The position numbers were made by a program, and so were the translations under genes. 64,000 bases of DNA from a virus: IMG/VR virus record IMGVR_UViG_3300032116_000104, positions 1 through 64,000 of that record. One strand, written 5' to 3'. The notes under the pieces were generated by a model. It did no database searches and was not told where the DNA came from. It saw only the letters and a program-made list of their open reading frames with translations. Positions 3,874 through 50,893 of the stretch are shown piece by piece. Numbering within the stretch: the stretch's first letter is position 1; every line of letters begins with the position of its first letter.

Positions 3874-3887
3874 CAAAGCGAGGATAC

Positions 3888-4418: not shown

Positions 4419-4425
4419 AAATCTC

Positions 4426-10745: not shown

Positions 10746-11279
10746 CTACCCTATATCAACTATTAAATGAATCCTATCTATATTTGAGTTGTTCTCAATG
10801 GAGTGATACCTATCGGTATTGTCAATGACCCACACTTCCCCGTATGGGATGTGCATCAATTCATTGCCAACAGTGAATACACATCCAGGACTGGTTACTA
10901 CTGGGACGTGTATGCGATGAGTTTTCTTGCTTATTGTTCCAACGTCCTTGTGTCTTGGTATTTTTCCCCCAGCCCTAAGTCGGGCAAAAAAAGCGCGTTT
11001 TATATCGCTTTCCCCGTATTTGGTAATGCCAAGACCTGCGACCTCATCAATATATTTGCTGAATATAGACATGTGTTCGTGTTCTTCCTGGGAGGCGACG
11101 GTGTCTACTTTGCCCCACAGGAGTGGAATTGTGTCCGTGTTGGCGCTTGCTGCTCCACCGCGATTCTTTCTTTCTTTGAACCCCAACCATTCCTCATTGG
11201 TTATTTTTTCCACATGTTCACGGAGGGATTCAATGCTTTCCAGTATTCCCAGTGGTACAAAACTCATTTCCTCATTCAT
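10746..11279 (-). CDS. 2OG-Fe(II) oxygenase, aspartyl/asparaginyl beta-hydroxylase family
   Basis: L..GG.I..HKD.......RIHVPV......GEVW.IDN...HSI.N.S..DRIHLIVD. Confidence 0.88.
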   Translation of the reverse strand: MNEEMSFVPLGILESIESLREHVEKITNEEWLGFKERKNRGGAASANTDTIPLLWGKVDTVASQEEHEHMSIFSKYIDEVAGLGITKYGESDIKRAFFARLRAGGKIPRHKDVGTISKKTHRIHVPVVTSPGCVFTVGNELMHIPYGEVWVIDNTDRYHSIENNSNIDRIHLIVDIG

Positions 11280-11290
11280 ATACACCGCCC

Positions 11291-11330
11291 AAAAGGAAAA
11301 ACCCCACCCTCCGAAGAGAGTGGGGTTTCC
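11291..11330 (-). terminator. Intrinsic terminator after the major capsid gene
   Basis: AAACCCCACTCTC-TTCG-GAGGGTGGGGTTT then TTCCTTTT; cUUCGg tetraloop. Confidence 0.88.
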
Positions 11331-11355
11331 CCTAACTAGATTGGCTAGTTGACTA

Positions 11356-14593: not shown

Positions 14594-14595
14594 AA

Positions 14596-14985
14596 TTACT
14601 TCGCAGAAGGGTATAGAGGATAGATGTCTTCGTTCCAATCATCTGGGACGATATTGTTCAGTTTCATGGCTGCTTGCTGAGCGTCATATGGATTTCCATA
14701 GCGCTTCTGATATAGACGCGCCTCTTCCAGGTCATCATCCCACTTCACTTCAAGAGTTGAGAATGGTCTATCCCACTTATCGGTACGTGTCATCTCTTGT
14801 TCAGCAGAAATTATTCCGTCCTGAAACTCTTTGCGTTTTGTGCGGCTTATCGTAAATGGCGGATAATCAAGAAGTATTGATAACTCCTTGTGCTTGCCGT
14901 GGAAGGCGGCCATCTGCTCTTCCGTAGCATTTGGCGGAGTGGCCCATTCGCTCTTGTAAATTGTGTTGTTTTCTTCCATGTCCAT
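14596..14985 (-). CDS. Hypothetical acidic protein (candidate immunity or partner protein)
   Basis: 129-aa ORF between two effector-bearing genes. Confidence 0.7.
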   Translation of the reverse strand: MDMEENNTIYKSEWATPPNATEEQMAAFHGKHKELSILLDYPPFTISRTKRKEFQDGIISAEQEMTRTDKWDRPFSTLEVKWDDDLEEARLYQKRYGNPYDAQQAAMKLNNIVPDDWNEDIYPLYPSAK

Positions 14986-30725: not shown

Positions 30726-33700
30726 TTAGAGGTCTTGAATCTCAACTTCTCTTCCGCGCTGATTGCGTCGGTTGACCGTTCTGGAACTCAACTCCTCAAC
30801 CGTTCTGTCAATGAATGTAGCCATGGCTGCTTTAGCGAGCATGTCAAGCATGGTTGCAAACTTCTGCTGACGCTCGTTGCCTCCGATGGCACCTTGACGG
30901 TCAATGACCACCATCATGGCGTCAAGGATTTCATCAACTTCATCTCTGGTCATCAGGATGCGCCCAGCGTTGGTTCTTCTGCTGCCCAACTTGGCTGCCT
31001 CTTGACGACTGATGAGGTCTTGAAGCGCCTTGAGGGCGTCTGATGTTCTCTTGTCCTGAGCCTTGTCTGCCTCACGGATTTCCTTCGGCAGTGAGTCAAG
31101 AATATCTTTGAAGAAAGTGGCTTCTGCCTTGATTTCCGTGCGGCCCTGCTTGGAGTCGGTTGACGACCTCAGGCCTCTCGTGTTCCGCGAGCGGGCGGCC
31201 ACATAATCCCTAACTTCCTGGGACACCACCCTGTTGGCATTGACTGGGACACTTGAGCGGAGACCCTCACCCATGCGTCGGGTAATGACTTCTCCTGCTG
31301 CTGGCTCCGCGTCTGGAGTTGGGACATTGTCGTCAATGTCCAGTGGGCGGCCCTCAACTCTCCTGACAACACCGCCAGTATCGTCAAACGCATCGTCTGA
31401 AATGTCGGCAATGTCGGCAGCAGCGCGACCCCTTCTCGGTGCAACCTCTATCTCTGGTCCATCCTTAATGAACTTGTCATTCTTGTAATAAGTGTCCAGT
31501 CCGTTAAGGGTTCTCAAGAGTGTTTCTGCTCGCTGAATAATCTTCTCTGCTGGACCATCGGTATCGTCGGCTTCCTCGGCGTCAGCGAGGTAGTTCTTAA
31601 CTCTCTGGATGGCAGCCTTGATTTGGTTCCTGCTCAGGTCTTCGCTGTCCATAATGTCAGCGATTTCATCCCAGGCCTCAGCATGGAGTTCATCAATTCT
31701 GCCCCTGTCTGAAAGTCTTGAAGCGTCGTTGACGGTCTTGTCAAGGAAGTTGTTGATTCTTCTTGAGTCGTCTCTACGCTCCGTGGTTGCGTCTTCGTCA
31801 TTTGCAGGACGAGGCTTGACGGCAACTTCTTTTGGCCCCTGTTGTGGCTGGCGTTGTGTCGGCTGCACTGGGCCCCTCTCGGCACGACGAGCCCCACGCT
31901 CTGCCCTTCTTTCGTCAGAAGCCTCTCTATCAAGCACTTCCTTCATAACGCGCTCATAGTCAACTTTGCGCATTCCACTTCTCTCTGGAGAGTGGTCTGC
32001 CATCCAGTTGAACTGTTGTTCTGCCGTCATGCCATCCCAGTTATCTGGCTTCATGCTCTGGAATGTCTTGCCCTTGCTGTCTTCCTTGGCCCTAGAGCCC
32101 ATCGGGCGTCCTTTGCTGCCACTGCGACCAGTATCACCGAGTCCTGTTACGCGGATTCCACCTCCGCCAGTATCGTCATCGCTGGTTGATGAACGCATGC
32201 CACGACCACTTGACTTCTTGGGATTGGCATCGCCAGTAATATTGCTGTACAGGGTATCAAGGGCCTTCCAGTCCTTCGCAAGAAGCGTTCCGTCCCCACG
32301 CCTGTTGTACTCCTCTCGGATTCTCATTGAGACGCCGAGGCTTCCACCCCTTGCGCTGTTCATGAAGAACACGAGTTTCTTCTGGCGGGCCTCATCAATG
32401 TCCGCAGGAGCGCCATTGTTATTATTTGAACGAAGGCCTAGGTTGCCGCGCTTGCCAGCCTGCTGGTCTTCCCAGTTGAGGCTCACATACTTTCCGCCCT
32501 CTGATTCGGCGGCCTGGTCAATTACGCCCTGAATGTCGGAGGTAACAACTGTTCTGCCGTCTCGGCGTGGCTCTTTTGCCGACTCAATGGCGTCTTCAAT
32601 CTGCTCAACCTCGTCTGGGGTGAGGTCAACTTTGCCATTCCTTGCGTTTTTAAGTTTCTCGTCAAGAGCATCAAGCGCTGCACCATTGGCAGAAAAACGC
32701 TTGAGCATTGGAATCTCGTCGCGAAGTTGTGCAATCTCATCGTCGCTGAGCGTCATTGATAGATTGTTTGCAACTCTTCTTGTTGAAGAACGCATTCCCT
32801 CATCTGAATCGGTCCGTGACTGTTGTGCCGCCTCGCGACGACGCATTGCACGCAGTTCCGCCTTGCGAACATCTTCACGACGCATTCCGAGAGACTCGGC
32901 CACTTCCTGGAGTGATTCACCTGCCTCGCGGCGTCTCAGAATTCGGTTTTCCGTTTTTTCTCTTTTTGCCCTTTCAAGACCTTCCTTGACGGTGGGTCTT
33001 GGTTTCCTGGCGGCGCGCGCAGTTGTGACCGCCCTGTCTTTCCCAGTCCAGTCCTTGAAAATCCTTGCCCTGGTCGCAAAATCACCTATTCCTTTATCGT
33101 CCCATGCATCAAAAACTCTTTCAGTTATTCCATCACCCCATGGGCCCATCATTTCCCTAACAGACGGGTTCTGCACTGGGAAGTCATCATCTATGCCCAG
33201 AGCGCTGGCAATTTGCTCGGCAACGATTTCCCCAAAACCGTTCAATACATCAACGAATGCCGATTCTTCTCCTTCGTCCCCAAATAGTCCATCAGACATG
33301 AGCCTGACCGCATCCTCTGCGAGAGAATCCATGCGAGAACGCATATTTTCTCTGGTAAATGGGGTGTTGGCAGCCGCATCAAAGAGTTCTTCAGTCCTGC
33401 TCCGAGACGACTCATCCAGGTCACGAATCATTGACCTTCCTGACTCCCTTTTACGCACATCAGACACTCTGTCTTTTCTGTCACGAGTTGACGACATCAG
33501 ACCTCTAATGCGTGCCTTTTGCTTATCGTTTGGATTTGGACGAATGGGCAATTTTTCAATATTGCGCTCCATGCGGTCACGCCAGTCATCCAGAAGTTCA
33601 ATTATCTCATCTTTGCTGAAAGAGTCCCAGTTTCGCAGCCACTCTCCCGTTGGGTCATCTGGGTCAGGGAGATACTCATTATCTGGGATGTTCGCTGCCT

Positions 33701-36700
33701 TGACTCTTTCCTCAAGAAGGTCACGAGCAAGGTAGGCAATATCAGTGACAGCCGTTCTATCTCCGCCACCTCCAGTGTTTCTGACACCATTTGCGGCTAT
33801 GTCAATTATTGACTGACGGATACGATTTAGTTCATCGCCAATGTTTTCTGGAGTTATGTCAGTGAGAACTATTGATTCAAAAAGTTCCATCGCTCTGTCT
33901 GCTGTGGCGGCATCCCATCCACCGCCCTGCTGCCCAGGCTGCATGAACCCCCTGATGTCACGCAACTCTTTTGACGCATCAAGTCTTGCCTGACGCGCCT
34001 GTTGTGCTGCCGCAGATGCGCGCCCTGCCTCTACGTCCCTCATATTGACGACTTCTACATCGCCAGTGCTGGAACGGACTCCTGTAGTTGGAAATTTGTT
34101 ATTTAACCCATTGGTCAGGGTATTGATTTCGTCTTCTGAGAATCCAAGTTCTCTGAGTTTGCCAACAATGTCTGACTCAATTTTCTGACGCGCCTCGCGA
34201 GACTCCGTTGGGTCAATCTTGCCCTTTTCATCACGCTTGACCATTCCAGAGCCGCGCTTACCGAGGTTCTCGGTCGTGGAGCGCATTCCACTACGGCGAC
34301 GCGCTGGGTTCAGGTTCTCAAGTTCTTCTTTAGAAACACCTTCAACAATGACCCTTCTTGCGGTCTTGGCGACTTCAAGTTGTCTGGCGAGCCTGGCTTC
34401 GTCTGGGCTTGGCTTGGCTCTCTCCATGTTCATATCGTCAACAGCAAGTTTGAGAACTCTATTCATGTCCTCAAAGTTGGTAGTCCCATTCTTCATGTCA
34501 CGAATGAGGCCATCAACCCAATCCTTGTCAAGGCCGCCCCTTGCCGAGTAGGCGGTTGGATAGTCTTCTAGTGACTCTTCAATATCTCTCAGAAACTCTG
34601 AAATTCTTCTGCCGCGACGGTCGGTAATTGACAGCGGTGAGTCCATTGAAGAACTCCTGAGACCACGAGCACGATTCATGCGTGGGTCTCCTCTGGTCTC
34701 TGCAATCTCCCATGCACGGAGGTCTTCCGCTCTGACGCCAAGGATTCCAGCAAGTTCACGAACTGGCGTTCCTTCAAAGCGCTTACGCAAGATGAATTCA
34801 GCAAGAGCCCTATCGGTGTCCTGGAATCGCGGCTCCTGACCTGGCTCCCCTCGTTGCGCAAGTTGTGCTGGTGTTCGTGCTGGGATGAGGTCTTTCGCCC
34901 TCTTCTTAATTTCCTGAATTTCTAGTTTCCGCACTTCTTCGCGCGACATACCATACTCTTCAGCAACATCATCAAGTACTTTGCCAGCAAGACGAGCATC
35001 AACAATCGCCCTGTCTCTGTCAATCTCAACCTGCATATCGTCCAGCAGCGCATCAACATCGTCTCTATCGGTTGAGGAACGAAGGCCTCTTCTTGAGCCA
35101 CCCGCATCTATGGAATCAGCAAGTTGCTGAATATCCTCAAACGGACCACCACGGTCTCTTCCGTATGCAGAGAGAGTGGCTATTAAAGCCAGTCTTGCGT
35201 TGTTCTTATCGTCCTCGCTAAGAGGAGACTTTGGCCTTCTTCTGCTCGGAAAGAATTTTGTAAAATCATCTCTGTCGCCGTCAGACAGTTTTATATATTG
35301 GTCTTTAAGTGTTGAAATAAGGTCGCTTAGTTCTTCTGCGCCAGGAAATTCGTCTGGAATGTCGCCTTGCATTACTGATGCAACTGTCCAGTCTGAACCA
35401 GGCTGCGGGGGAAAGTAATCGCCCTGTTCGCTAGGCATAAACCGCGAAAGAACCTCCCCGAGGTTTTCAAGGAGAATTTCATCTACATCATCCATTGATG
35501 TATCACCGTCATTGCCAAGACTTGCGTCAAGCGCCTCTATTGCTCGCTGAAGTGCTTTTGTCTGCTCATCTATGGTCATTTCCGCAAAGCGGTCTCCCAT
35601 TGCGTCAATAATTTCTCTTTGCTCTACGCTATTGGCCTTTGCCGTTCTTGAGCGAAGCCCATCAGGGCGACCCTTGGAGTCTCCAGCACTTTGCATGCTA
35701 CGCACCATGTTACGAAGCGCATCAGAGTTTTGCTTATCCGTACTACGAACTCGCTTGTTATTTACTGAGTCAAGAACTGTGCCGAGGGCAAGAAGAGACG
35801 CAATTTGGTCGTCTTCTGACACTGCTCTCTTCCCTCTGGTTTTATACATGTCACCAAAGCGACCCTTGCCGCCAAGTTTTTCATAGGCATCCTGGACTTC
35901 ACTCAGAAGGTCACTGACGCTCTCTTTGTCAACGCTCTCTGAACCATCAAGAATTTTGGATGCTGAGTAATCACCCGATGGCGCTTCCACGGATAGAAAA
36001 TCACTCATTAGTTCAGACAGGTATTCTCTGTAGAAATCAATTTCATCGTCACCAGTGGCATCAAACAATTCCAACTGGTCTTTAACGATATTTCTAAAAG
36101 CCTCTTTTCTTTCAGATGGAGACATTTTTGCCATTGATTCAATTGCTGTTCCAGAACGCAGTCCACCATCACGACGGTTCTTGGCCTCAAGTTCGGCTTG
36201 TCGCACATCCTCGCGACGCATGTTGAGCGACTGAGCAACATCCTGTAGTGACTCCCCAGCCTCGCGGCGCTTGAGAATCTCATCGTTTGTCTTGCGCTTT
36301 GCATCGCGCTGGCGGATTGCCCGAAGTTCAGCCTTTCGCACGTCTTCGCGGCGCATGCCAAGGGACTCGGCTACGTCCTGCAAGGACTCTCCAGCCTCAC
36401 GGCGCTTCAAGATGGAGGCGTCGTCGTTGCTGTCTTTTCCACCAGATGAACGGAGACCACGACCAGTGTTGATGCCCTGCCCCTGGGCGGCCTGAATTGC
36501 CGCCTGAGTATTTACGCGACCACGCGTTGACCTGTCGTTGACGCCTGGAATCGCAGGTCTTTGGAACGGTGTCCCTTCTTGAACGATGCCATCGCCGTCA
36601 CCGTCCCAAGCGTTGGGGTCAAATCTAGCGGTTAGGCCTCTTGCGAGGCGGCGTCCTTTTCCCCCTCCGCCACCACCAATCGCTCGCCCGATGCGATTGC

Positions 36701-38015
36701 CAAGCCCCTTCTTTAGAGTTTCAACTGCATCAATGAACTCGGGAGTGACACCAGAGGTAATCACGATTCCCTTTTCAGAGACATATGAATCTACGCGGTG
36801 GTAATCCATGATTGGGTCAAGGAGTTGCTTCGTGTGGAAAGCATTATTGATGTCAACTGGGATGACATACTCTGCTGACTTCACTTCAACTTCCTTCTCT
36901 GCCGAAGCAAGGACATCTTGGAGCATTTCCATGACATTCTTCAGTTTTGCAAGGTTGCGCTTGTTGAGCGAGCGGCCAATCTTCTCCTCAATGTCATCAA
37001 GGAAGAAGTCGTCAAAGTCCAAGTCGTCGGACTTTCCTGGCATTGGCATGAAGTCGTCTGGGTCATCCCCAAGATAGGCGTCCCCCTGCGGCTTCATTGA
37101 CACAGCAAAAGCCTGTGCTGGAGATGACGGTATGGCGGGAATCTCTGGCGTGTAGACAGTCTGACTCTGGACGCGCTCAGGCTTGCCAAACATGAATTGA
37201 CCATCCTGGAAGTGGAATGCCACTCTGTATGTTGACGACTCACCGTCGCTTGTCAGTCTGTCAAAAACAACAGTGTTCTCTGTTGCGGCCCTCACGATGA
37301 CGTTGGAGCCAGACCGCTTGACAAGTTCCCTTCTGAGGGCAACCATCAGCGGGTTCTCTGGGGCAGATGGACGAACTGGGCGAACGGCCTGCTGTGGCTT
37401 CGGCGCCATTGGCTTCATCATTCCAGACGGCATTCCAGGGCTGTGCGGCATGCCTGGCATGCCCATCATTCCGTGACCCTTCTCCTCATCCGCCAGAGTA
37501 GTATCTGACTTAACCGAAATCGTGCCAGTCAGTTGGTTGGCTCCATGAAGAACTGGGGAAACCTCGTAAAGTTCCACCTCTCTGAGGATGTTGGCCTGAA
37601 GATTAGGGTCAAAAGACGCCTGAATGGTCTTGTAGCCAATTGACCACTCCTGCTCCTCACCAAAGAAGGCAACATTGGCGAAAGCCTCACGGCCCTTCTC
37701 TGAATTGAGGTTGAACTGAACGCGAGCGTAAAGACCGCCGATTCCAGCAGCCTTCATCTTTCCTGGCAGTCTTGAGTCGGTTGGGGGAACTTCGTAAATC
37801 TCCAAAACCTTGCCGATGGGGTCATTCCAGTTGTGTCCCCAGACGACTCTTGGCTTGCGTCGCTTCAGACTTGAGTTAAAAGCACCTGGGAGAAGAACAT
37901 CACCGACGCTGTCCTTGTTTCCGACGCCAGCAACGAAGCACTCAACGATGCCCTGAGCCTGGTCAACATTGAATGTTCCAGAACTCGCTTTGAACTCAAT
38001 ATCAGAAAAAGACAT
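30726..38015 (-). CDS. Prohead (HK97-type, S78) protease fused to a ~2250-aa modular polyprotein
   Basis: N-terminal ~170 aa: G.VE.FV...GNKDS.GD...PGAF..SL......W.HNW..PIG...WSIGY...LYEVSPVL.GAN. Lies between portal and capsid genes. Confidence 0.92.
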   Translation of the reverse strand: MSFSDIEFKASSGTFNVDQAQGIVECFVAGVGNKDSVGDVLLPGAFNSSLKRRKPRVVWGHNWNDPIGKVLEIYEVPPTDSRLPGKMKAAGIGGLYARVQFNLNSEKGREAFANVAFFGEEQEWSIGYKTIQASFDPNLQANILREVELYEVSPVLHGANQLTGTISVKSDTTLADEEKGHGMMGMPGMPHSPGMPSGMMKPMAPKPQQAVRPVRPSAPENPLMVALRRELVKRSGSNVIVRAATENTVVFDRLTSDGESSTYRVAFHFQDGQFMFGKPERVQSQTVYTPEIPAIPSSPAQAFAVSMKPQGDAYLGDDPDDFMPMPGKSDDLDFDDFFLDDIEEKIGRSLNKRNLAKLKNVMEMLQDVLASAEKEVEVKSAEYVIPVDINNAFHTKQLLDPIMDYHRVDSYVSEKGIVITSGVTPEFIDAVETLKKGLGNRIGRAIGGGGGGKGRRLARGLTARFDPNAWDGDGDGIVQEGTPFQRPAIPGVNDRSTRGRVNTQAAIQAAQGQGINTGRGLRSSGGKDSNDDASILKRREAGESLQDVAESLGMRREDVRKAELRAIRQRDAKRKTNDEILKRREAGESLQDVAQSLNMRREDVRQAELEAKNRRDGGLRSGTAIESMAKMSPSERKEAFRNIVKDQLELFDATGDDEIDFYREYLSELMSDFLSVEAPSGDYSASKILDGSESVDKESVSDLLSEVQDAYEKLGGKGRFGDMYKTRGKRAVSEDDQIASLLALGTVLDSVNNKRVRSTDKQNSDALRNMVRSMQSAGDSKGRPDGLRSRTAKANSVEQREIIDAMGDRFAEMTIDEQTKALQRAIEALDASLGNDGDTSMDDVDEILLENLGEVLSRFMPSEQGDYFPPQPGSDWTVASVMQGDIPDEFPGAEELSDLISTLKDQYIKLSDGDRDDFTKFFPSRRRPKSPLSEDDKNNARLALIATLSAYGRDRGGPFEDIQQLADSIDAGGSRRGLRSSTDRDDVDALLDDMQVEIDRDRAIVDARLAGKVLDDVAEEYGMSREEVRKLEIQEIKKRAKDLIPARTPAQLAQRGEPGQEPRFQDTDRALAEFILRKRFEGTPVRELAGILGVRAEDLRAWEIAETRGDPRMNRARGLRSSSMDSPLSITDRRGRRISEFLRDIEESLEDYPTAYSARGGLDKDWVDGLIRDMKNGTTNFEDMNRVLKLAVDDMNMERAKPSPDEARLARQLEVAKTARRVIVEGVSKEELENLNPARRRSGMRSTTENLGKRGSGMVKRDEKGKIDPTESREARQKIESDIVGKLRELGFSEDEINTLTNGLNNKFPTTGVRSSTGDVEVVNMRDVEAGRASAAAQQARQARLDASKELRDIRGFMQPGQQGGGWDAATADRAMELFESIVLTDITPENIGDELNRIRQSIIDIAANGVRNTGGGGDRTAVTDIAYLARDLLEERVKAANIPDNEYLPDPDDPTGEWLRNWDSFSKDEIIELLDDWRDRMERNIEKLPIRPNPNDKQKARIRGLMSSTRDRKDRVSDVRKRESGRSMIRDLDESSRSRTEELFDAAANTPFTRENMRSRMDSLAEDAVRLMSDGLFGDEGEESAFVDVLNGFGEIVAEQIASALGIDDDFPVQNPSVREMMGPWGDGITERVFDAWDDKGIGDFATRARIFKDWTGKDRAVTTARAARKPRPTVKEGLERAKREKTENRILRRREAGESLQEVAESLGMRREDVRKAELRAMRRREAAQQSRTDSDEGMRSSTRRVANNLSMTLSDDEIAQLRDEIPMLKRFSANGAALDALDEKLKNARNGKVDLTPDEVEQIEDAIESAKEPRRDGRTVVTSDIQGVIDQAAESEGGKYVSLNWEDQQAGKRGNLGLRSNNNNGAPADIDEARQKKLVFFMNSARGGSLGVSMRIREEYNRRGDGTLLAKDWKALDTLYSNITGDANPKKSSGRGMRSSTSDDDTGGGGIRVTGLGDTGRSGSKGRPMGSRAKEDSKGKTFQSMKPDNWDGMTAEQQFNWMADHSPERSGMRKVDYERVMKEVLDREASDERRAERGARRAERGPVQPTQRQPQQGPKEVAVKPRPANDEDATTERRDDSRRINNFLDKTVNDASRLSDRGRIDELHAEAWDEIADIMDSEDLSRNQIKAAIQRVKNYLADAEEADDTDGPAEKIIQRAETLLRTLNGLDTYYKNDKFIKDGPEIEVAPRRGRAAADIADISDDAFDDTGGVVRRVEGRPLDIDDNVPTPDAEPAAGEVITRRMGEGLRSSVPVNANRVVSQEVRDYVAARSRNTRGLRSSTDSKQGRTEIKAEATFFKDILDSLPKEIREADKAQDKRTSDALKALQDLISRQEAAKLGSRRTNAGRILMTRDEVDEILDAMMVVIDRQGAIGGNERQQKFATMLDMLAKAAMATFIDRTVEELSSRTVNRRNQRGREVEIQDL

Positions 38016-38105: not shown

Positions 38106-40202
38106 TTACTGAAATGACCCTTGGACGCCAGCGTTCCACGCACGACGGGCTTCCTGTTCAGCGATTTCTGGCCTCTTCTTGCCCAAGAGGTTAGTGAACG
38201 TAGAGACGATTGAACTCCTGAAAAGCGTGCTTCGGATGTCCTCATCTGGGGCGTTGAGGGAAGTGAACATTGACGCACTCAGTTCACCAAATGTCTCGTC
38301 ATTCACTAGATTGATGCGCTCAATCTGGGAATTCACATGAGCGATGGCATCCTCTCGGGTGAATGGGGCAATCGGTAGACGCTTCTCCGCATAGGTTTCG
38401 CGGGCATCATTCATGATGGAAGTCAGGACTGGCCTGATGTCTTCCTCAATCTGTCTAGTCCATGTCTCCCTGTTGAAGATGGAGTCAATTTCCAAGGATG
38501 CCGTGGCGAGTTGCTTCTTCGCCTTGGCTCCGCTGGCCTTTTCCAGAACGACCCTCTGTTGCCTCTCAAAGATTCTCTCTAGGCTTCTGTCAAGAATCTG
38601 GGTCCATCTAGTGAGGGCAATATTGGACGCTTGGTCCAATTCTTGGTCCACCTTGGTTTGAATTGGCGAGTTAGCCAACGCCGACATTTGTTGTGGTGCT
38701 GGTGGCTCTTCTGTGGTGGCCATTTCGGGTGGAGCATCGTTTGGCCCCATTGGTGCTGGCGGCTCCGCTGCTTGGGCAGCAATTTGCATGGCGCCCTGCA
38801 TGGTCGTTGCATCTGGCGGTCCTTCTGGGGCGGCGTCAGTTGGCGGCATTCCTGGCATTCCTGGCATTCCTGGAGCACCTGGGGCACCTGGCATCCCTGG
38901 CATCCCTGGCATCCCTGGCATTCCTGGAGCACCTGGCATCTGTGCCTGCGGACCCTCTTCCATCTTCTTCTTGGTATTGGCGATGGGGGTGAGATTCGGG
39001 TTCATGAGAAGCGAGTCAGCAAGGTCGCTCTGAACATCCTTGCGTCCAGAATTAATTCTGTACTCGTTGGTACTGATGAGTCCATTCTGGAACTCATCCA
39101 TGAGGTAGCGCTGGCGCTCCTGCTCGTACAGAATCAGGACTGGAACATCCGATGTATCAAAGTCAATGTAATTGTTTTCATCAAGTTCGTCAAGGGCGCG
39201 ACCGAGAATTTCCAGATGCGGAAGCATTGTTTCGTTCCAGAAGACTCTGTGCTCCTCTGCGGCGTTGCTGAATGTCCTGCCCGCAGCGTTGCCAATGACC
39301 GACTCTGGCACTCCGAATGAAGCAAGAATCTCCTCTTTTGTGATTTGCCTCATCTGCATGTAGGCCGCATCACGGGGAGACGCAGATGTGTCAACATAAT
39401 CAACACCTTCGTCCGAAGAAATAACCGTTGTCTGACCCGTTCTGCTCAGGTTTCCACGGAAACGATTCTTGATTTCCTCTTTGTCGTCCTCGTCAATTTC
39501 CCCCCTGAGGACGATTAGTCCACCAGGACGACCGTCATTCAGCAAGTAGTTTCTGTTATAGACCTTTGCAAGATTCTCAATCTCTACGGCGACACCAGCG
39601 GACTCAAGAGGCGTCATTGAGAGGTACGGGTCAAGCGGGTGTGGCTTGCGAATCCAGACCACATCATCTGGCTTCATGATGATTGTTCTGCCGTCTGGCA
39701 TGATGACCTCATAGCCAGCGACAAAGTTCTTTGGGTCTGGAATTGGCGCGGTGGACTGCGGTGGCAAAAGGTTCAGGGCGATAACGGTTCCGTCTCTGGA
39801 ACGAATCTTCTCAATGAACGCACCTCTGGTGCTCATGAGAATCTGTGAGGAAAGCCTGTATCGGAAGATGAAGGAGTTCTCTCCTATGTTCGCTTTGGTA
39901 TTGAAGATTTTCAACAGGGGGCTGTCCTTAGCCGCCTTGCCGCCAAGAATCTGCCCGTCAGGTGAGTTATCCTTGCGAAGAATGACTGGAAGCCTTGCCT
40001 GGTTTCCAGCGATGGCATCAATGCATCGCGACACCCAAGTGACCTTCTGCATGCCCTCGCGATAAACGCGCTCAATGTCCCATGAGTCCTTGTAGCCACG
40101 GCCTGCATAGGCGGGGTTCATTGCGATGGGGGCGCCAGGACCTATTGCCGCCTTGGAAGAACCTGAGTTCAGTGACTTATTTTGATAACTATTCCAGGCC
40201 AT
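38106..40202 (-). CDS. Portal protein (HK97-like) with MPG low-complexity linker and MuF-like C-terminal extension
   Basis: V.RCID.IA...A.LP, G.A.I, P.DP..S..PL, N.GRPGG, I...FGVP...G; C-terminal RI..VNDET...IAEQE.RRAWNAG. Confidence 0.93.
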   Translation of the reverse strand: MAWNSYQNKSLNSGSSKAAIGPGAPIAMNPAYAGRGYKDSWDIERVYREGMQKVTWVSRCIDAIAGNQARLPVILRKDNSPDGQILGGKAAKDSPLLKIFNTKANIGENSFIFRYRLSSQILMSTRGAFIEKIRSRDGTVIALNLLPPQSTAPIPDPKNFVAGYEVIMPDGRTIIMKPDDVVWIRKPHPLDPYLSMTPLESAGVAVEIENLAKVYNRNYLLNDGRPGGLIVLRGEIDEDDKEEIKNRFRGNLSRTGQTTVISSDEGVDYVDTSASPRDAAYMQMRQITKEEILASFGVPESVIGNAAGRTFSNAAEEHRVFWNETMLPHLEILGRALDELDENNYIDFDTSDVPVLILYEQERQRYLMDEFQNGLISTNEYRINSGRKDVQSDLADSLLMNPNLTPIANTKKKMEEGPQAQMPGAPGMPGMPGMPGMPGAPGAPGMPGMPGMPPTDAAPEGPPDATTMQGAMQIAAQAAEPPAPMGPNDAPPEMATTEEPPAPQQMSALANSPIQTKVDQELDQASNIALTRWTQILDRSLERIFERQQRVVLEKASGAKAKKQLATASLEIDSIFNRETWTRQIEEDIRPVLTSIMNDARETYAEKRLPIAPFTREDAIAHVNSQIERINLVNDETFGELSASMFTSLNAPDEDIRSTLFRSSIVSTFTNLLGKKRPEIAEQEARRAWNAGVQGSFQ
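38845..38939 (-). repeat. 9-bp tandem repeat encoding (MPG/APG)n inside the portal gene
   Basis: CCTGGCAT(T/C) units on the + strand. Confidence 0.85.
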
Positions 40203-40445: not shown

Positions 40446-40493
40446 ATGAACAACATTACCTTATACGACGAACGGCTGTCGGAGGGCATATTT

Positions 40494-41801
40494 ATGTCAA
40501 CAGATTGGAACAAAGTTTTAGAGTATCTTCAGCCGAAGATGCCTGGGTTTTGTCCAGAACAGCCATCCATAACCCAGAAGGTATTTCTAAGAACCTATGC
40601 CATTGAGGCGCTGTTCGGGGGAGCGGCTGGTGGAGGCAAGTCATCCGCTCTTCTGATGTCAGCATTGCAGTATGTGGATATTCCTGGCTATTCAGCCATT
40701 CTTTTCCGCCGCACCTTCGCTGACTTGTCGCTCCCAGGAGCACTCATGGACCGCTTCAAGTCATGGATTGACAATTACGACGACGTTCATTGGAACGCCA
40801 ACTCCTATGTTGCGACTTTCCCATCTGGGGCCAGAATCTCCTTCGGATACCTGAACAACACGAACGACTACCTCCGATACAAGGGTTCTGAGTTCCAGTT
40901 CATCGGCATGGATGAGGTCACTGAAATTCGTGAATCTGACTATAGGTACCTGTTCTCCCGACTGCGTCGCCCTGCTACTGGACCACTTTCCAAGGTTCCC
41001 CTCCGAATGAGGGCCGCATCCAACCCAGCACCCAACTGGGTGAGACAAAGATTTATTGTTGAGGGCATTGATAATGGCAGAATTTTCGTGCCCTCCAAAC
41101 TGACCGACAACCCTGGAATTGATGCCACCTCGTACCGTCAAGCCCTTTCTGCCCTTGACCCTATTGAGAGAAGAAGGCTGGAGGAGGGCGACTGGTTTGC
41201 CACCACCCTAGGGACGCTCTTTGACAGAACATCGGCAATCATCATTGACCACTCAGAAATACCTCAGGTCCAGTCATCGGCTCGTGTTGTCCGTTTCTGG
41301 GACTTGGCGGCTACAGAGCCAAGTTATTCAAACCCCAATCCAGACTGGACTGTCGGTACATTGATGATGTTTGACCAAGGAATCGCCTACGTTTTGGATG
41401 TCAAGAAAGCCAGAGTGCGCGGCGAGAAGGTTGAGCAGTTGATTGCCCAAACCGCCTATGAGGACGGACATGCTGTCCCCATCAGAATGGAGCAAGAACC
41501 TGGTTCTTCTGGAAAAGCCCTAGTTGACCAATACGCAAGATATGTGCTTCCTGGATACGATTTTCAGGGCATTCGCTCTACTGGGGACAAGGTCACAAGG
41601 GCTAGACCATTTTCTGCCGCGTTTGCTAATGGCAATGTCAGGGTCGCAAGGGGGGCATGGCTGACTGATTGGCTTGATGAATTTTCGTCATTTCCTGAGG
41701 CCTGTGACCACGACGACCAAGTGGACTCCGCCGTAGGAGCATTCACATATTTGGCTGGACTTGGGTTGCCACAGAGACGAGCAATCAGTATCATCGTCTA
41801 G
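40494..41801 (+). CDS. terL: Terminase large subunit
   Basis: Walker A GGAAGGGKS, Walker B IGMDE, ASNP; nuclease motifs WDLA...PDWT and HDDQVD; GGAGG RBS. Confidence 0.95.
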   Translation: MSTDWNKVLEYLQPKMPGFCPEQPSITQKVFLRTYAIEALFGGAAGGGKSSALLMSALQYVDIPGYSAILFRRTFADLSLPGALMDRFKSWIDNYDDVHWNANSYVATFPSGARISFGYLNNTNDYLRYKGSEFQFIGMDEVTEIRESDYRYLFSRLRRPATGPLSKVPLRMRAASNPAPNWVRQRFIVEGIDNGRIFVPSKLTDNPGIDATSYRQALSALDPIERRRLEEGDWFATTLGTLFDRTSAIIIDHSEIPQVQSSARVVRFWDLAATEPSYSNPNPDWTVGTLMMFDQGIAYVLDVKKARVRGEKVEQLIAQTAYEDGHAVPIRMEQEPGSSGKALVDQYARYVLPGYDFQGIRSTGDKVTRARPFSAAFANGNVRVARGAWLTDWLDEFSSFPEACDHDDQVDSAVGAFTYLAGLGLPQRRAISIIV

Positions 41802-45606: not shown

Positions 45607-45954
45607 TTGATTTCCAGGAATGCTCCAATTAGTCAAGTTGACATTGAGCACGAATTGCTCCGACTGATTGACGAACTTGAGGAAGAGACTGAGGCTTTTG
45701 AGAAGTTGGCTGAAGATGCCTCCAAGAAAGAGTCTCTCTACAAGTCCAACTGGGCAAAGGAGTACCTGTCAGCCAAGGGTTCAATCAAAGAGCGCGAGGC
45801 ATGGGCCGACTACAAGATGGCTGACGAGAACTTTGACTACAAAATTTCAGAAGCACTTGTCAAGGCAAAACGCGAGAAACTGCTTTCTCTGCGAACTGCC
45901 ATTGATGCCATGCGAACACTGAACGCCAATGTGAGAGTACAGGTGAATAATTGA
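45607..45954 (+). CDS. Hypothetical coiled-coil protein
   Basis: 115-aa ORF with GGAG RBS and TTG start. Confidence 0.75.
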   Translation: MISRNAPISQVDIEHELLRLIDELEEETEAFEKLAEDASKKESLYKSNWAKEYLSAKGSIKEREAWADYKMADENFDYKISEALVKAKREKLLSLRTAIDAMRTLNANVRVQVNN

Positions 45955-46754
45955 AACACAATGTTGCGCAGGCACTTGAGGGATTGCTGGTTCCAATTGA
46001 AACCCTTATCCCACTTGAGAACAATCCTCGTCGTGGCGACATAGGCGCGATTATGGCCTCCTATGCAGAGTTTGGTCAGGTGAAGCCGATTGTCGTGCGC
46101 CCCAATGAAGACGGCACATCAACTGTTATTGCTGGTAACCACCAACTAGAGGCAGCCAGGCGTCTTGGGTGGAGCCACATTGCCGCCGTCGGCTATGAAG
46201 TGGACGACAGCAGGGCTATTGCTTTTGCTCTTGCTGACAACCGCACGATGGAACTTGGACACACTGAGGCATCAGCACTCAATGAGATGTTGGTTGAGGT
46301 GGCGGATATTTATCCAGAGTTGTTTGAAGGTCTTGGCTGGGATGAATTTGAAATTGCCGAGATGGAAGAGCAGGTTGAGCGAAAGACCTGGAACGACGAG
46401 CAGACATCGTCCTACACGACCCCAGTGATTCAACCCATCATCAATGCTGCCGCAGAAATGGCTGGTAGGGCAATATCCGCCCTGGTTAGCGAAGATGAGG
46501 ATGGTGAACTGCGCATCAATGCCCCTAAGGATGCTGACCATCGGGAAATCGCCACACAGGGCAGCACTGTCACTCAGGGCGGTGCGGCAACTGCTCCACA
46601 GGCGGTTGTTCAATACACAATCGTGTTTGACAACCCTCAACAGCAGCGTCGTTGGTATGAATTCATCAAGTGGCTTCGTAACGACCCAGCGGTTGCTGGG
46701 AACACGGTTGCGGAGAAATTGATTGACTTCATTGACCAACACATAGAGGTCTAG
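45951..46754 (+). CDS. ParB/Srx-like N-terminal domain protein
   Basis: NNPR.GD...I..S...FGQ..PIVV......VIAGNH..EAA..LG...ADNR. Confidence 0.88.
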   Translation: MKHNVAQALEGLLVPIETLIPLENNPRRGDIGAIMASYAEFGQVKPIVVRPNEDGTSTVIAGNHQLEAARRLGWSHIAAVGYEVDDSRAIAFALADNRTMELGHTEASALNEMLVEVADIYPELFEGLGWDEFEIAEMEEQVERKTWNDEQTSSYTTPVIQPIINAAAEMAGRAISALVSEDEDGELRINAPKDADHREIATQGSTVTQGGAATAPQAVVQYTIVFDNPQQQRRWYEFIKWLRNDPAVAGNTVAEKLIDFIDQHIEV

Positions 46755-46756
46755 TA

Positions 46757-47911
46757 ATGACGCGACAGCGGATGTTTCTTGACATAGATGTGGTTGAGGC
46801 CGCGAGACAGAGGATTAGACATGTCTATGATACTTTTGATACTGTTTGCGTTCAGTTTTCTGGAGGAAAAGACAGCACAGCGGTTCTTTACCTTGCTAAA
46901 GAAATTCATGAGGAGAGGGGACTCGGACCTGTAAAGGTCATCTTCCGTGACGAAGAGATGGTCAGCCCGCTTGTTGCCAACTACGCGATGAAGATTCGCG
47001 AATACGACTGGGTTGACATGGAGTGGTACTGCCTAACATCTGGCAGCGAGGTGTGGACTCTTGGCACTAGAGACCCAGTTGTGCTCTGGGGTCATGAGAG
47101 GCGAGATACTGGTCGTTGGGTGCGTCCAATGCCACCTTTCGCAATCACTCCAGCGCACTTCGGAATCCCAGATGGGCAAGCCCTGACGGAAGCAATTGAT
47201 TACTACACAATGCAGGGCAAAAAGGGCAAAGTGGCCTTCATTACTGGCGTTAGGGCTGCTGAGTCAATGGTTCGCTATCGCTCTTGTGTGCAAAAATTGC
47301 ACGAAAACTACATAGTTACCCCATACAGGCTCAAAAAGTCAATTCCGTTGAAATTTGCCAAAATTATCTACGACTGGCAAATTGACGATGTATTCAAATT
47401 CATCACGGAAGAGCACAATGCCGAATATTGCGAGTATTACGACCTTGCGGCACTTACTGGCTCAAACACCAGAGTTGGCATTCCGCTCCACTCGGTCGCT
47501 ATTCGCCGTATTGGTGACCTGATTGCTACCGAGCCAGAATTCTATGACAGGCTCGTGGAGATTTGGCCCAATATTGATGCCCAGAGGCGTTGGTGGCCAG
47601 AATTTGACATTGAGAAACTCATTGAGTACTACGCTAGCCAAGGCATTGACGGAGCGAAGGAGTGCATAGAGACGCACTACTTGTCTGAGGATGATAAGCG
47701 ACGGGCAAAGGCATATGTAGCCGACTTTAGACGCAAGCACGCCGCCGACCCTTATTCGTACCCCATGAACTGGCTCATCAGGAACATTTTGCATAACGAA
47801 ATCTCCGTACATGCCGCCGCCCCAGTTGGGCCGAAGACAAAGGCACATACACTCAGAGTGAAGGCTGCACAAAAAGCCGCAGAAGAGGAAATAAATGAAT
47901 ATGAAGATTGA
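46757..47911 (+). CDS. PAPS-reductase-family (IbrA-like) adenine nucleotide alpha-hydrolase
   Basis: FSGGKDS PP-loop, F.DEE, G.RA.ES..R, IYDW..DDV. Confidence 0.88.
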   Translation: MTRQRMFLDIDVVEAARQRIRHVYDTFDTVCVQFSGGKDSTAVLYLAKEIHEERGLGPVKVIFRDEEMVSPLVANYAMKIREYDWVDMEWYCLTSGSEVWTLGTRDPVVLWGHERRDTGRWVRPMPPFAITPAHFGIPDGQALTEAIDYYTMQGKKGKVAFITGVRAAESMVRYRSCVQKLHENYIVTPYRLKKSIPLKFAKIIYDWQIDDVFKFITEEHNAEYCEYYDLAALTGSNTRVGIPLHSVAIRRIGDLIATEPEFYDRLVEIWPNIDAQRRWWPEFDIEKLIEYYASQGIDGAKECIETHYLSEDDKRRAKAYVADFRRKHAADPYSYPMNWLIRNILHNEISVHAAAPVGPKTKAHTLRVKAAQKAAEEEINEYED

Positions 47912-50497: not shown

Positions 50498-50893
50498 ATG
50501 CAGAATAAAGTCGTCAACGTCAAGGTCAAGAAGGGTGATTCCCTATCGGGGTTCCCTGCTGGTTCTGTCGTAGTTAAAAACGTCGCTGGAAGAACTATTG
50601 AGGTTGGTGAGCCAAGACTTGCTCTCTTCCCAGGGGAAATTGCTGTTTTCGCTGGCTCCGCCAGGGGCGTTGCCGAGGGGCTTGCCAACAAGACGCTCAA
50701 GTCTGTTCAGGTCGTTGATGCCTATGAAGAGCCTAAGTCGTATATCTCTAGCAAGAAAAAGAAGAATGATGTTCCAGCGCCAGATGAGGAAACTGTTTCT
50801 GAAACAGTTGCATCGGAGGAGCCAGAGTCATCTGTACAATTGGGGCTTGTAGACACCGAGTCTTCCCCCTCTGACCAGCAGGAAGGTAACTAA
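50498..50893 (+). CDS. Hypothetical protein upstream of sheath
   Basis: GGAG RBS; acidic disordered C-terminus; TAATG coupling to sheath. Confidence 0.7.
   Translation: MQNKVVNVKVKKGDSLSGFPAGSVVVKNVAGRTIEVGEPRLALFPGEIAVFAGSARGVAEGLANKTLKSVQVVDAYEEPKSYISSKKKKNDVPAPDEETVSETVASEEPESSVQLGLVDTESSPSDQQEGN

What the first reader, a model, noticed from the sequence alone, without database searches (positions are those of the whole stretch)
32845..36413. Five sigma70-region-4-like HTH modules inside the protease polyprotein
Seen: ILKRREAGESLQDVAESLGMRREDVRKAELRA (~36310-36413), a tandem copy (~36180-36278), a near-identical copy 3.4 kb away (~32845-32943) and two diverged copies (~34905-35007, ~34695-34794). 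Known: sigma70 region 4.2 consensus TLEEVG..F.VTRERIRQIE.KA binds the -35 element and the RNAP beta flap. Inference: these are injected sigma4 mimics that redirect or block host RNA polymerase, decoy sigma4-binding factors (WhiB-type in Actinobacteria), or coat the incoming DNA.
Basis: partly seen in the sequence, partly recalled or inferred. Interest (0 to 1): 0.8.

Follow-up and report, generated by a model that had tools for sequence, protein, structure and literature searches.

The report
Sigma-4-like modules in phage head polyprotein
An uncultured freshwater phage of actinobacteria carries five copies of a small DNA-reading domain, related to the promoter-reading end of bacterial sigma factors, inside the giant protein that begins with its head-maturation protease, so it probably packs ready-made DNA-binding proteins into its particle, although no cutting, packing or binding has been measured.

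Summary
The 2429-aa minus-strand ORF 30726-38015 starts with a Peptidase_S78 prohead protease and carries five helix-turn-helix modules at the stated places. Four are strong and one is diverged. Pfam calls Sigma70_r4 above its cut-off. A profile of 26 such modules finds sigma-factor region 4 in 59 of the 60 best PDB sequences.

The copies are old: their synonymous sites are saturated while the protein core is kept. They lie in the variable middle of a protease-headed cargo polyprotein, next to the G-L-R-S-S junction motifs. The same modules, 1-5 per protein, occur in 18 of 61 related phage polyproteins and in at least 37 of the 149 best database representatives. Some of those proteins also carry ArdC-N, a polyvalent-protein zincin and a UvrD helicase.

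My best reading is accessory, protease-released, capsid-packed DNA-binding cargo. Four of the five copies keep the three residues that read the -35 element.

No region 2 is present, so these are not sigma factors. The scan has noted similar sigma-like modules in head polyproteins of other genomes. I class this as a new variant of a known kind.

The parts
30726..38015 (-). Gene of the 2429-aa protease-headed polyprotein (P0001), directly downstream of the portal gene (38106-40202, minus)
   Evidence: ORF list and translation; portal called by PHROGs at E 2.2e-67; Pfam Peptidase_S78 and Sigma70_r4
37518..37961 (-). Prohead serine protease domain (aa 19-166)
   Evidence: Pfam PF04586 E 1.5e-11; phrog_80 head maturation protease E 4.5e-29; about 40% identity to the proteases of Gordonia and Brevibacterium myophages
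36279..36413 (-). HTH module 1 (aa 535-579)
   Evidence: 19.1 bits Sigma70_r4; 41.9 bits with the relatives-only profile
36144..36278 (-). HTH module 2 (aa 580-624), in tandem with module 1; it ends in the junction motif at aa 618
   Evidence: 16.7 bits; 34.5 bits
34872..35006 (-). HTH module 3 (aa 1004-1048)
   Evidence: 19.1 bits; 33.1 bits
34659..34793 (-). HTH module 4 (aa 1075-1119), the diverged copy; it ends in the junction motif at aa 1118
   Evidence: 9.2 bits only; best of 50 shuffles 0.3 bits; not called by Pfam
32808..32942 (-). HTH module 5 (aa 1692-1736), near-identical in protein to module 1; it ends 2 residues before the junction motif at aa 1740
   Evidence: 21.6 bits; 38.8 bits
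36156..36449 (-). Predicted released piece aa 523-620 (11.2 kDa, pI 9.6) holding modules 1 and 2, bounded by the junction motifs at aa 520 and 618
   Evidence: Motif positions and piece properties. The cut position within the motif is assumed for bookkeeping only.
34656..35078 (-). Predicted released piece aa 980-1120 (16.1 kDa, pI 5.1) holding modules 3 and 4, bounded by the motifs at aa 977 and 1118
32790..33494 (-). Predicted released piece aa 1508-1742 (26.7 kDa, pI 5.5) with module 5 at its C-terminal end, bounded by the motifs at aa 1505 and 1740
30729..31166 (-). Conserved C-terminal domain (aa 2284-2429), shared with the relatives' polyproteins; possibly the scaffold or capsid-binding end
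   Evidence: 54% identity to L010 and conserved in L008, L016, L020 and L028; a C-terminal HMM hits 18 of 149 database representatives. The function is inferred.
36552..36626 (-). Shared Asp/Gly-rich tag (aa 464-488) just before the first junction motif; also present in the 1195-aa and 596-aa head-cassette proteins
   Evidence: phrog_7924 in both proteins; repeat families D5 and D6

Best explanation
The five modules are domains related to region 4 of sigma-70-family factors: a three-helix HTH without region 2 and without the first helix of region 4. They serve as swappable cargo units in the variable middle of a polyprotein that starts with the prohead protease.

Proposed mechanism, with shown and inferred steps marked:
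1. The polyprotein enters the procapsid through its conserved protease/scaffold N-terminal part and its conserved C-terminal domain (inferred).
2. The protease cuts at the reiterated G-[LMV]-[RM]-S-[STGN] junctions (inferred from enrichment of the motif and from its lineage-specific replacement in relatives). This would free pieces of 11, 16 and 27 kDa that hold two, two and one HTH.
3. These pieces stay with the packaged genome and bind double-stranded DNA through the sigma-4-type recognition helix. The residues equivalent to the -35-reading R584, E585 and R588 are kept in 4 of 5 copies (sequence shown; binding inferred).
4. They are probably delivered with the DNA and act at the very start of infection on the incoming genome or on -35-like sites (inferred, the least certain step).

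They are accessory cargo, not needed to build the head, because close relatives lack them.
For: Homology to sigma region 4:
- Pfam Sigma70_r4 scores 38.9 bits against a cut-off of 24.1.
- The 26-module profile finds sigma factors in 59 of the 60 best PDB sequences; the best is RpoH at E 1.3e-8, and actinobacterial SigA/HrdB score about 1e-6.
- Twelve of 26 single modules hit Sigma70_r4; the next family is hit by 5 of 26.

Selection: between copies 1, 2 and 5, pS is 0.74-0.86 (saturated) and pN in the core is 0.04-0.13.

Conserved columns: R17 25/26, G20 23/26, R38 23/26, E41 23/26, R34 17/26, E35 12/26. Profile position p corresponds to E. coli sigma70 residue p+550 (row 4jk1_X). R584, E585 and R588 are the -35 determinants (PMC2613000, passages).

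Polyprotein grammar:
- Twelve strict motifs lie in P0001 out of 22 in all six frames of the window.
- Each related lineage has its own version of the motif: GMAS, GLAS, GFSS, RLSSG, SLSSG, GFASR.
- A loose generic pattern occurs 3.40 times per 1000 aa in polyproteins against 1.08 in other ORFs.
- The last module of a run ends within 7 residues of a junction in all 3 runs of the window and in 14 of 18 module-bearing relatives. In 5 relatives a single module is bounded by junctions on both sides. Many of these loci are near-duplicates.

Specific to the polyprotein: a six-frame scan of the window, L088 and 80 related loci finds modules only in 19 giant ORFs and in one unrelated 126-aa HA+HTH ORF.

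Accessory: all five lie in aa 520-1740, the part that is not conserved. L008 (portal 66% identical) has none.

Company they keep: related polyproteins with these modules also carry ArdC-N, the MPTase-PolyVal zincin, a UvrD helicase and KTSC (P0006; L049). These are hallmarks of polyvalent proteins, which were proposed to be packed in the head and injected with the DNA (PMC5512222, abstract and passages).

Arrangement: arrays of 2-3 modules with a 43-46-residue period are the common form. This arrangement is typical of DNA-binding repeat arrays (my inference).
Against: - No proteomic, structural or biochemical data exist. Cutting, packing, ejection and DNA binding are all inferred.
- The same motif occurs 3 times in the tape measure protein, which is not inside the head. 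Cutting may therefore not be confined to the capsid or to this protease.
- Two of the three HTH-bearing pieces are acidic, so they are not histone-like.
- Single modules fall below Pfam's cut-off, and module 4 is weak.
- The R584-equivalent is Pro in 7 of 26 modules.
- Forty-three of 61 related polyprotein ORFs, many of them cut by contig ends, show no module. The complete 148-kb relative G002 has none in its polyprotein.
Confidence: 0.5

Rival explanations
1. RNA polymerase decoy. The freed sigma-4-like domains are injected, occupy the beta-flap tip of host RNA polymerase or titrate factors that bind sigma region 4, and so shut off -10/-35 promoters at time zero.
For: The modules are closest to region 4 of group 1-3 sigma factors. 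Phages commonly attack the sigma-4/beta-flap node: AsiA, gp39 and P7 (PMC7403470, passages). The phage and 4 of 4 relatives tested encode WhiB, a family that binds sigmaA region 4. No Sigma70_r2 was found in 5 of 5 genomes, two of them complete, so these phages appear to depend on host sigma.
Against: The first helix of region 4 is not matched (Pfam positions 14-47 of 50) and the 4.1-4.2 loop is shorter. Both bear on the flap-binding pocket, though that assignment is from recall. The His-Pro pair needed for WhiB1 binding is absent in 0 of 26 modules. Tandem arrays of 2-3 modules suit a DNA lattice better than a single flap tip. The conserved polar positions are those of the recognition helix.
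Confidence: 0.15
2. Assembly role only. The HTH modules bind the phage's own DNA inside the head, to organise or anchor the packaged genome or to couple DNA entry to scaffold release, and never act in the next host.
For: They sit in a protease/scaffold-type protein between a conserved N-terminal part and a conserved C-terminal domain. A simpler architecture exists elsewhere with no junction motifs: S78 + DUF6321 + two Sigma70_r4 modules in 893 aa (P0033, 60.6 bits). DNA-binding scaffold proteins are known, for example phi29 gp7 (recalled, not checked here).
Against: Close relatives build the same head without them (L008 has none). Copy number varies from 0 to 5. They lie in the variable cargo part, next to anti-restriction and helicase modules in relatives.
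Confidence: 0.2
3. Cytoplasmic late regulators. The polyprotein is cut before or without packaging, and the freed HTH proteins regulate transcription or DNA handling late in the producing cell.
For: The junction motif also occurs in the tape measure protein (3 sites) and once in the 596-aa protein, so the cutting enzyme may work outside the capsid.
Against: The position of the gene between the portal and head genes, and the conserved protease and C-terminal ends, favour co-assembly into the head. Related proteins carry hallmark domains of injected polyvalent proteins.
Confidence: 0.08
4. There is no specific HTH function: the modules are charged helical spacers that resemble sigma-4 only superficially.
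For: Single modules are below Pfam's cut-off. The protein-atlas look-up gave only generic HTH clusters at scores of 0.84 or less.
Against: Non-synonymous divergence is low while synonymous sites are saturated. The turn glycines, the hydrophobic pattern and the recognition-helix residues are conserved across 26 modules from lineages that are 15-62% identical. The PDB hits are nearly all sigma region 4. Shuffled controls score 0.3 bits at best.
Confidence: 0.05

Closest known systems
Region 4 (domain sigma-4) of sigma-70-family factors (Pfam PF04545), e.g. RpoH, RpoD/SigA, HrdB
   Same: The helix / helix-turn-helix pattern is the same. The recognition helix reads R-E-x-V-R-[KQ]-x-E in the modules against R-E-R-I-R-Q-I-E in the sigma factors. 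The -35-reading positions are kept in 4 of 5 window copies.
   Different: There is no region 2 or 3 anywhere in the protein or in the genomes tested. The first helix is not matched, the 4.1-4.2 loop is shorter, and the His-Pro after the last helix is absent. The modules are reiterated 1-5 times inside a head protein.
Polyvalent proteins of phages and conjugative elements (Iyer, Burroughs, Anand, de Souza, Aravind 2017; PMC5512222)
   Same: These are giant multi-module proteins encoded among head genes next to the portal. Relatives of this polyprotein carry the hallmark ArdC-N and MPTase-PolyVal domains plus a helicase. Polyvalent proteins were proposed to be packed and injected with the DNA.
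   Different: That paper places assemblin-like (prohead-type) peptidases always at the C terminus and calls them rare (passage); here the protease is at the N terminus. It does not contain the word sigma and mentions only 'other HTH domains' as infrequent. The reiterated junction motif is not described in the passages I read.
Head-internal and ejected proteins processed by the prohead protease (T4 IPI-III and Alt; phiKZ-like SPN3US ejection proteins)
   Same: These are small proteins made as precursors, cut by the head protease at a short consensus, stored with the DNA and delivered to the host. For SPN3US I saw the abstract of PMC7411985; the T4 details are recalled.
   Different: Those are separate genes, each with its own targeting peptide. 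Here many units hang on one chain headed by the protease itself, and none of the known ones is a sigma-4-like HTH.
Phage factors that target sigma-4 and the beta-flap (T4 AsiA, P23-45 gp39, Xp10 P7; phage WhiB-like proteins)
   Same: They act on the same node of host transcription, which would be the target under the decoy reading (PMC7403470).
   Different: Those are binders of sigma-4 or of the flap, made after infection. Here the phage carries look-alikes of sigma-4 itself, made late and probably packed.
Protease-scaffold fusions of HK97/lambda-type heads, e.g. Brevibacterium phage Cantare gp13 (417 aa)
   Same: The protease domain is homologous (40.6% identity over 155 residues), and the portal and capsid proteins are also homologous.
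   Different: Cantare gp13 is 417 aa, lies directly before the capsid gene, and has no HTH modules or junction motifs.

Membership tests
Sigma-70-family sigma factor | Region 2 (core binding and -10 recognition) in the same protein | tested here: not met
   Pfam at E<=1 lists 13 families for P0001, none of them Sigma70_r2 or r3. PF04542 was found in 0 of 5 genomes (own plus 4 relatives, 2 of them complete), while the control rang in 10 of 14 genomes.
Sigma-70-family sigma factor | Region 4 HTH | tested here: met
   PF04545 38.9 bits against 24.1; 59 of the 60 best PDB sequences are sigma factors.
Pfam Sigma70_r4 domain (PF04545) | Score over the gathering cut-off and full-length coverage of the model | tested here: inconclusive
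   The whole protein passes (38.9 bits). Single modules score 16.7-22.6 bits, under the 24.1 cut-off. Coverage is positions 14-47 of 50. Twelve of 26 modules match at E<=0.01.
Functional sigma-4 (-35 reader) | Residues equivalent to E. coli R584, E585 and R588 | tested here: met
   All three are present in window modules 1, 2, 3 and 5; module 4 has Ala, Glu, Arg. Across the 26 modules: R 17, E 12, R 23. The role of these residues is taken from PMC2613000. Binding itself was not tested.
WhiB-binding sigmaA region 4 | The His516-Pro517 pair after the last helix | tested here: not met
   Substitution of either residue abolishes WhiB1 binding (PMC6954389). The aligned columns 50-51 hold His-Pro in 0 of 26 modules.
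Beta-flap-binding sigma-4 | The hydrophobic pocket that holds the flap-tip helix | not testable with these tools
The only relevant observation is that the first helix is unmatched and the loop is shorter.
Polyvalent proteins (Iyer et al. 2017) | Many unrelated domains in one chain, encoded with the portal/terminase head genes | tested here: met
   The gene lies next to the portal and large terminase genes. The window's protein shows only S78 and the HTH modules as named domains, but relatives add ArdC-N, MPTase-PolyVal, UvrD and KTSC.
Polyvalent proteins (Iyer et al. 2017) | Packed into the virion and injected | not testable with these tools
   This needs virion proteomics or infection assays.
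Prohead-protease substrates (internal head proteins) | Cutting at a short reiterated consensus by the head protease | tested here: inconclusive
   The motif is enriched and is replaced lineage by lineage, but it also occurs in the tape measure protein. No cleavage data exist.

The most novel reading that the evidence does not exclude
The phage particle delivers several hundred ready-made sigma region-4 domains with its DNA. In the very small cells of freshwater actinobacteria this would be enough to occupy -35 elements or the beta-flap of most RNA polymerases at time zero. It would be a virion-borne, stoichiometric switch of host transcription that needs no phage gene expression, and the first case of a sigma domain used as an injected effector. 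The copy number per virion and the host cell size are my assumptions.
Probability: 0.17. Interest if true: 0.85.

Novelty: new variant of a known kind. Interest (0 to 1): 0.6.

Why it matters
If the pieces are packed and delivered, phages would have a third way to seize host transcription at entry, beside injected RNA polymerases (N4, phiKZ-like phages) and injected modifying enzymes (T4 Alt): bringing fragments of the promoter-reading subunit itself.

The family is not rare. There are 174 portal relatives in IMG/VR. The module profile gives 2805 database hits at E<=0.001, and at least 37 of the best 149 are protease-headed giants. The same stretch is held almost unchanged in lake and freshwater metagenomes from several studies.

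The modules are also small, self-contained DNA-binding units with natural cut sites on both sides, which makes them easy to test.

Tried and rejected
- DNA search of the gene against 50,697 phage records: no match. tblastn found only the protease domain, at 41.5% identity or less.
- Word-indexed protein search with residues 500-1760 found only the protein itself among 8000 scored candidates of 1335-4251 aa. Relatives appeared only through the portal and through the exhaustive profile search.
- Cultured relatives do not have the feature. Cantare gp13 and DalanDe gp27 show no HTH module and no junction motif. In DalanDe the protease lies in the C-terminal part of a 1633-aa protein.
- Split-sigma idea (a phage sigma with region 2 that uses these region-4 modules in trans): rejected as far as Pfam can see, because PF04542 is absent from 5 of 5 genomes.
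- Virion RNA polymerase idea: a D-x-D-G-D type pattern in long ORFs gave only the shared Asp/Gly tag in three head proteins and one hit at an ORF end. Pfam and PHROGs gave nothing for the 502-, 1945-, 549-, 681- and 1195-aa neighbours except a weak PepSY match.
- Search for a repeated DNA site that the modules might bind: direct repeats of 16 nt or more in the window showed only coding repeats and tRNA genes. I did not do a proper motif search of intergenic DNA.
- The protein-atlas look-up of residues 521-620 gave generic HTH clusters at 0.84 or less, below the level the tool calls meaningful.
- Sequencing runs: no RNA holder is listed, so nothing can be said about expression. The laid contigs of 4 runs showed no insertions or deletions and few differences. 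One low-depth contig (X6) carries a cluster of differences near its end, within and beside module 5; this may be an assembly effect between the repeated modules.
- Literature searches found no paper describing sigma region 4 modules in prohead-protease proteins: prohead protease/polyprotein/sigma, actinophage/freshwater/capsid/injected, polyvalent proteins, region 4/internal virion protein/ejected, capsid maturation protease/cargo/cleavage motif, and Sigma70_r4/phage/protease/portal (no paper). Subscription journals and the supplementary files of PMC5512222 were not visible to me, so a listing there cannot be excluded.
- Structure prediction and fold search could not be done.

Full report
WHAT IS THERE.

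The window is the first 64 kb of an 84,372-base IMG/VR virus record that is estimated to be 56% complete. It is a contractile-tailed phage, with a sheath gene (50893-52356), a tape measure gene (53628-57623) and a baseplate wedge gene (61499-62722).

The head genes run on the minus strand: the portal (38106-40202), then the 2429-aa ORF 30726-38015 (P0001), then ORFs of 502, 1945, 549, 199, 681, 1195 and 596 aa, and finally the major head protein (11356-12684). The large terminase gene (40446-41801) lies on the plus strand.

The nearest cultured phages are actinobacterial myophages: Brevibacterium phage Cantare and the Gordonia Bendigovirus/GMA6 phages. Identities are 38-44% for the portal, 47-49% for the capsid protein and about 40% for the protease. 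The record itself and 4 of 4 relatives tested encode WhiB, which rang in only 1 of the 14 control genomes, Corynebacterium. Two relatives are complete at 148 and 154 kb. The stretch is held at half of its sampled words or more in 9 runs labelled lake water, freshwater, algae, fungus or plain metagenome; 3 of these may be the source sample.

THE OBSERVATION.

P0001 begins with a Peptidase_S78 prohead protease at residues 19-166 (E 1.5e-11). It also matches Sigma70_r4 at 38.9 bits against a cut-off of 24.1, in four stretches.

The five modules start at aa 535, 580, 1004, 1075 and 1692. Each single module is just under Pfam's cut-off, at 16.7-22.6 bits.

A profile made only from 21 modules of related phages scores modules 1, 2, 3 and 5 at 33-42 bits and module 4 at 9.2 bits. 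The best of 50 shuffles of P0001 scores 0.3 bits. Those relatives' modules were found by iterating from the window's own copies, so this control is only partly independent.

Pfam at E<=1 shows no region 2 or 3. PF04542 is absent from the record and from four related records.

HOW SIGMA-LIKE ARE THEY.

I aligned 26 distinct modules, 5 from the window and 21 from relatives, as A1.

- Its profile finds 95 PDB sequences at E<=1. Of the 60 best, 59 are sigma-70-family factors matched in region 4: RpoH at 1.3e-8, and S. aureus, mycobacterial and Streptomyces SigA/HrdB and RpoS at about 1e-6 to 1e-7. One is an unrelated 'CAP repeat'.
- Scanned singly against Pfam, 12 of 26 modules hit Sigma70_r4 at E<=0.01. 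The next families are HTH_28 (5), HTH_AsnC-type (4) and Sigma70_r4_2 (2).
- The alignment to the full-length E. coli chain (query 21-55 against residues 571-605) puts profile position p at residue p+550. This assumes that chain index equals residue number.
- R584, E585 and R588 are the genetically and structurally defined -35 readers (PMC2613000, passages). Their equivalents are Arg in 17, Glu in 12 and Arg in 23 of the 26 modules. All three are present in window modules 1, 2, 3 and 5.

The modules differ from real sigma-4 in three ways:
- Pfam positions 1-13 (the first helix) are not matched.
- The loop between the helix ending in the conserved Arg and the HTH is about five residues shorter.
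- The His-Pro that follows the last helix of sigmaA is absent in 0 of 26 modules. WhiB1 needs both of these residues (PMC6954389, passages).

ARE THEY UNDER SELECTION.

Copies 1, 2 and 5 share 71-75% of 110 nt. In the 32-codon core, the proportion of synonymous differences is 0.74-0.86, which is saturated. The proportion of non-synonymous differences is 0.04-0.13. The copies are therefore old, or have been driven apart at silent sites, while the protein has been held. This rules out a recent neutral duplication and argues against a mere spacer.

WHERE THEY SIT.

P0001 contains 12 matches to G-[LMVI]-[RM]-S-[STGN], out of 22 in all six frames of the window. The others in listed ORFs are 3 in the 1945-aa protein, 1 in the 596-aa protein (just before a Zeta-toxin/AAA_33 kinase-like domain), 3 in the tape measure protein and 1 in the terminase.

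Taking these motifs as junctions, the HTH modules fall into three pieces:

| Piece (aa) | Size | pI | Modules |
|---|---|---|---|
| 523-620 | 11.2 kDa | 9.6 | 1 and 2 |
| 980-1120 | 16.1 kDa | 5.1 | 3 and 4 |
| 1508-1742 | 26.7 kDa | 5.5 | 5, at the C-terminal end |

In all three pieces the last module ends within 7 residues of the next junction.

RELATIVES.

The portal protein finds 174 relatives in IMG/VR. Eighty loci were kept, and 61 of them have an ORF of 600 aa or more straight after the portal.

- Each lineage has its own reiterated short motif in that ORF: GLRS, GMAS, GLAS, GFSS, RLSSG/RFSSG, SLSSG or GFASR.
- A loose pattern covering all of these occurs 3.40 times per 1000 aa in these ORFs against 1.08 in the other long ORFs of the same loci.
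- An iterated module profile finds 1-5 modules in 18 of the 61 ORFs. Many of the ORFs are cut by contig ends, and many loci are near-duplicates, so these are not 18 independent events.
- In 14 of those 18 the last module abuts a junction. In five, all of one lineage, a single module is bounded by junctions on both sides, giving a piece of about 60 residues that is nothing but the HTH.
- Across the relatives, the first ~520 residues are 49-61% identical to P0001 and, in 5 of the 7 relatives compared, the last ~450-700 residues are about 28-35% identical (up to 54% over the final ~140 residues in L010). The part in between, aa 520-1740, which holds all five modules, is not conserved. L008 (portal 66% identical) has no module at all.
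- In a six-frame scan of the window, the rest of the record and the 80 loci, modules occur only in 19 giant ORFs, plus one unrelated 126-aa ORF of the same record that combines an HA domain with an HTH.

WIDER SPREAD AND COMPANY.

The A1 profile, run against 1.84 billion cluster representatives, gives 2805 proteins at E<=0.001 and 67 at E<=1e-10. Of the 149 best other than P0001:
- 47 are 1000 aa or longer.
- 37 show at least one polyprotein hallmark: 25 have the N-terminal protease part, 18 the conserved C-terminal domain, and 32 have five or more junction-type motifs.
- Of the best 50, 31 show a hallmark.
- These proteins carry 1-5 modules, most often 2 or 3, with a 43-46-residue period.

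Named cargo in such proteins includes:
- ArdC-N, the MPTase-PolyVal zincin, UvrD-type helicase and KTSC, together with S78 and Sigma70_r4, in P0006 (3988 aa) and in L049.
- UvrD in P0023 and L040.
- KTSC in L050.

A shorter architecture without junction motifs also exists: S78 + DUF6321 + two Sigma70_r4 modules, 60.6 bits, in 893 aa (P0033).

WHAT IT MOST LIKELY IS.

ArdC-N and the MPTase-PolyVal zincin are hallmark domains of the polyvalent proteins of Iyer et al. (PMC5512222). That paper argues from architecture and gene context that such proteins are packed into the head and injected with the DNA (abstract and passages). It mentions 'other HTH domains' only as infrequent double-stranded-DNA binders. 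It says that assemblin-like peptidases are rare and always C-terminal.

The protein here is therefore a protease-headed form of that class. The sigma-4-like HTH is one of its exchangeable cargo modules, and it travels with DNA-handling and anti-restriction modules.

My best reading (confidence 0.5) has four steps, in decreasing order of support:
1. The modules are cut out at the junctions.
2. They are kept in the head with the genome.
3. They bind DNA through a recognition helix that still has the -35-reading residues.
4. They are probably delivered with the DNA.

What is shown: the homology, the selection, the position in the variable cargo part, the adjacency to junctions and the recurrence in relatives. 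What is inferred: cutting, packing, DNA binding and delivery.

RIVALS.

It is attractive because phages often attack the sigma-4/beta-flap node (PMC7403470) and because these phages show no sigma region 2 of their own. It is weakened by the missing first helix, the short loop, the missing His-Pro and the tandem arrays.
- A purely internal assembly or DNA-organising role (0.2). It fits P0033 but not the presence/absence pattern among close relatives.
- Cytoplasmic release as late regulators (0.08). It is kept alive by the junction motifs in the tape measure protein.
- A functionless spacer (0.05). It is disfavoured.

NOVELTY.

Known kinds that apply are head-internal proteins processed by the prohead protease, and polyvalent proteins. 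Three things are not found in the papers I could search:
- sigma region-4 modules as reiterated cargo;
- their placement as junction-bounded units;
- their spread across a large family of ~150-kb freshwater actinophages.

Earlier notes of this scan report sigma-like modules in head polyproteins of other genomes. I did not test those. I class the finding as a new variant of a known kind, with interest 0.6.

LIMITS.

- The supplementary files of the papers were closed.
- Counts over loci include near-duplicate contigs.
- The cut position inside the junction motif is unknown.

Noticed in passing
window 12848-14638 (-): The 596-aa head-cassette protein has a Zeta-toxin/AAA_33 kinase-like domain (aa 372-509, E 3.1e-13) just after a G-L-R-S-S motif at aa 329, and two DUF3721 stretches at its N terminus. 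It may be a kinase-type cargo released at the same junction.
   Followed up: partly
window 36552-36626, 17790-17877, 13839-13926 (all -): An Asp/Gly-rich tag of about 25 residues (a D-G-D-G-D-G core followed by a conserved P-F-Q-R-P) is shared by the 2429-, 1195- and 596-aa proteins. In each it lies before the first junction motif. It may be a targeting or calcium-binding tag.
   Followed up: partly
window 53628-57623 (+): The tape measure protein carries three junction-type motifs, at aa 41, 570 and 575. The cutting enzyme may therefore also process a tail protein outside the head.
   Followed up: no
window 38836-38943 and 37447-37491 (-): 9-nt tandem repeats lie inside the portal gene, and a related run lies in the polyprotein just after the protease domain, where the translation reads as Pro-Gly-Met-type repeats.
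   Followed up: no
window 5718-5895: Nine 15/18-nt tandem repeats. Read on the minus strand they would encode a Lys/Ala/Pro-rich basic repeat. I did not check the strand or the gene.
   Followed up: no
window 811-4499 (+): A cluster of six tRNA genes: Gln-TTG, Lys-TTT, Thr-TGT, Ser-TGA, Leu-TAG and Arg-TCT.
   Followed up: no
window 9552-10256 (-) and 10746-11378 (-): A DUF6321 protein and an Asp/Asn beta-hydroxylase-type oxygenase lie just downstream of the major head gene. In other phages DUF6321 is fused directly to the S78 protease and to sigma-4-like modules (P0033, P0094, P0127).
   Followed up: partly
G000:C1:78945-79136 (+) and 82381-82758 (+), outside the window: There is a WhiB gene (55.5 bits) and a 126-aa ORF that combines a helicase-associated HA domain with a Sigma70_r4/HTH_23-type HTH. 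The latter is not related to the polyprotein modules by context.
   Followed up: partly
window 45951-47911 (+): A ParB-like protein is directly followed by a PAPS-reductase-like protein. This pairing may point to DNA modification.
   Followed up: no
L006 (Gordonia phage DalanDe) 8641-13542: The annotated 'capsid maturation protease' gp27 is 1633 aa, with the protease domain at about residues 1121-1296, so it has a long N-terminal extension. This is the C-terminal arrangement described for polyvalent proteins.
   Followed up: no
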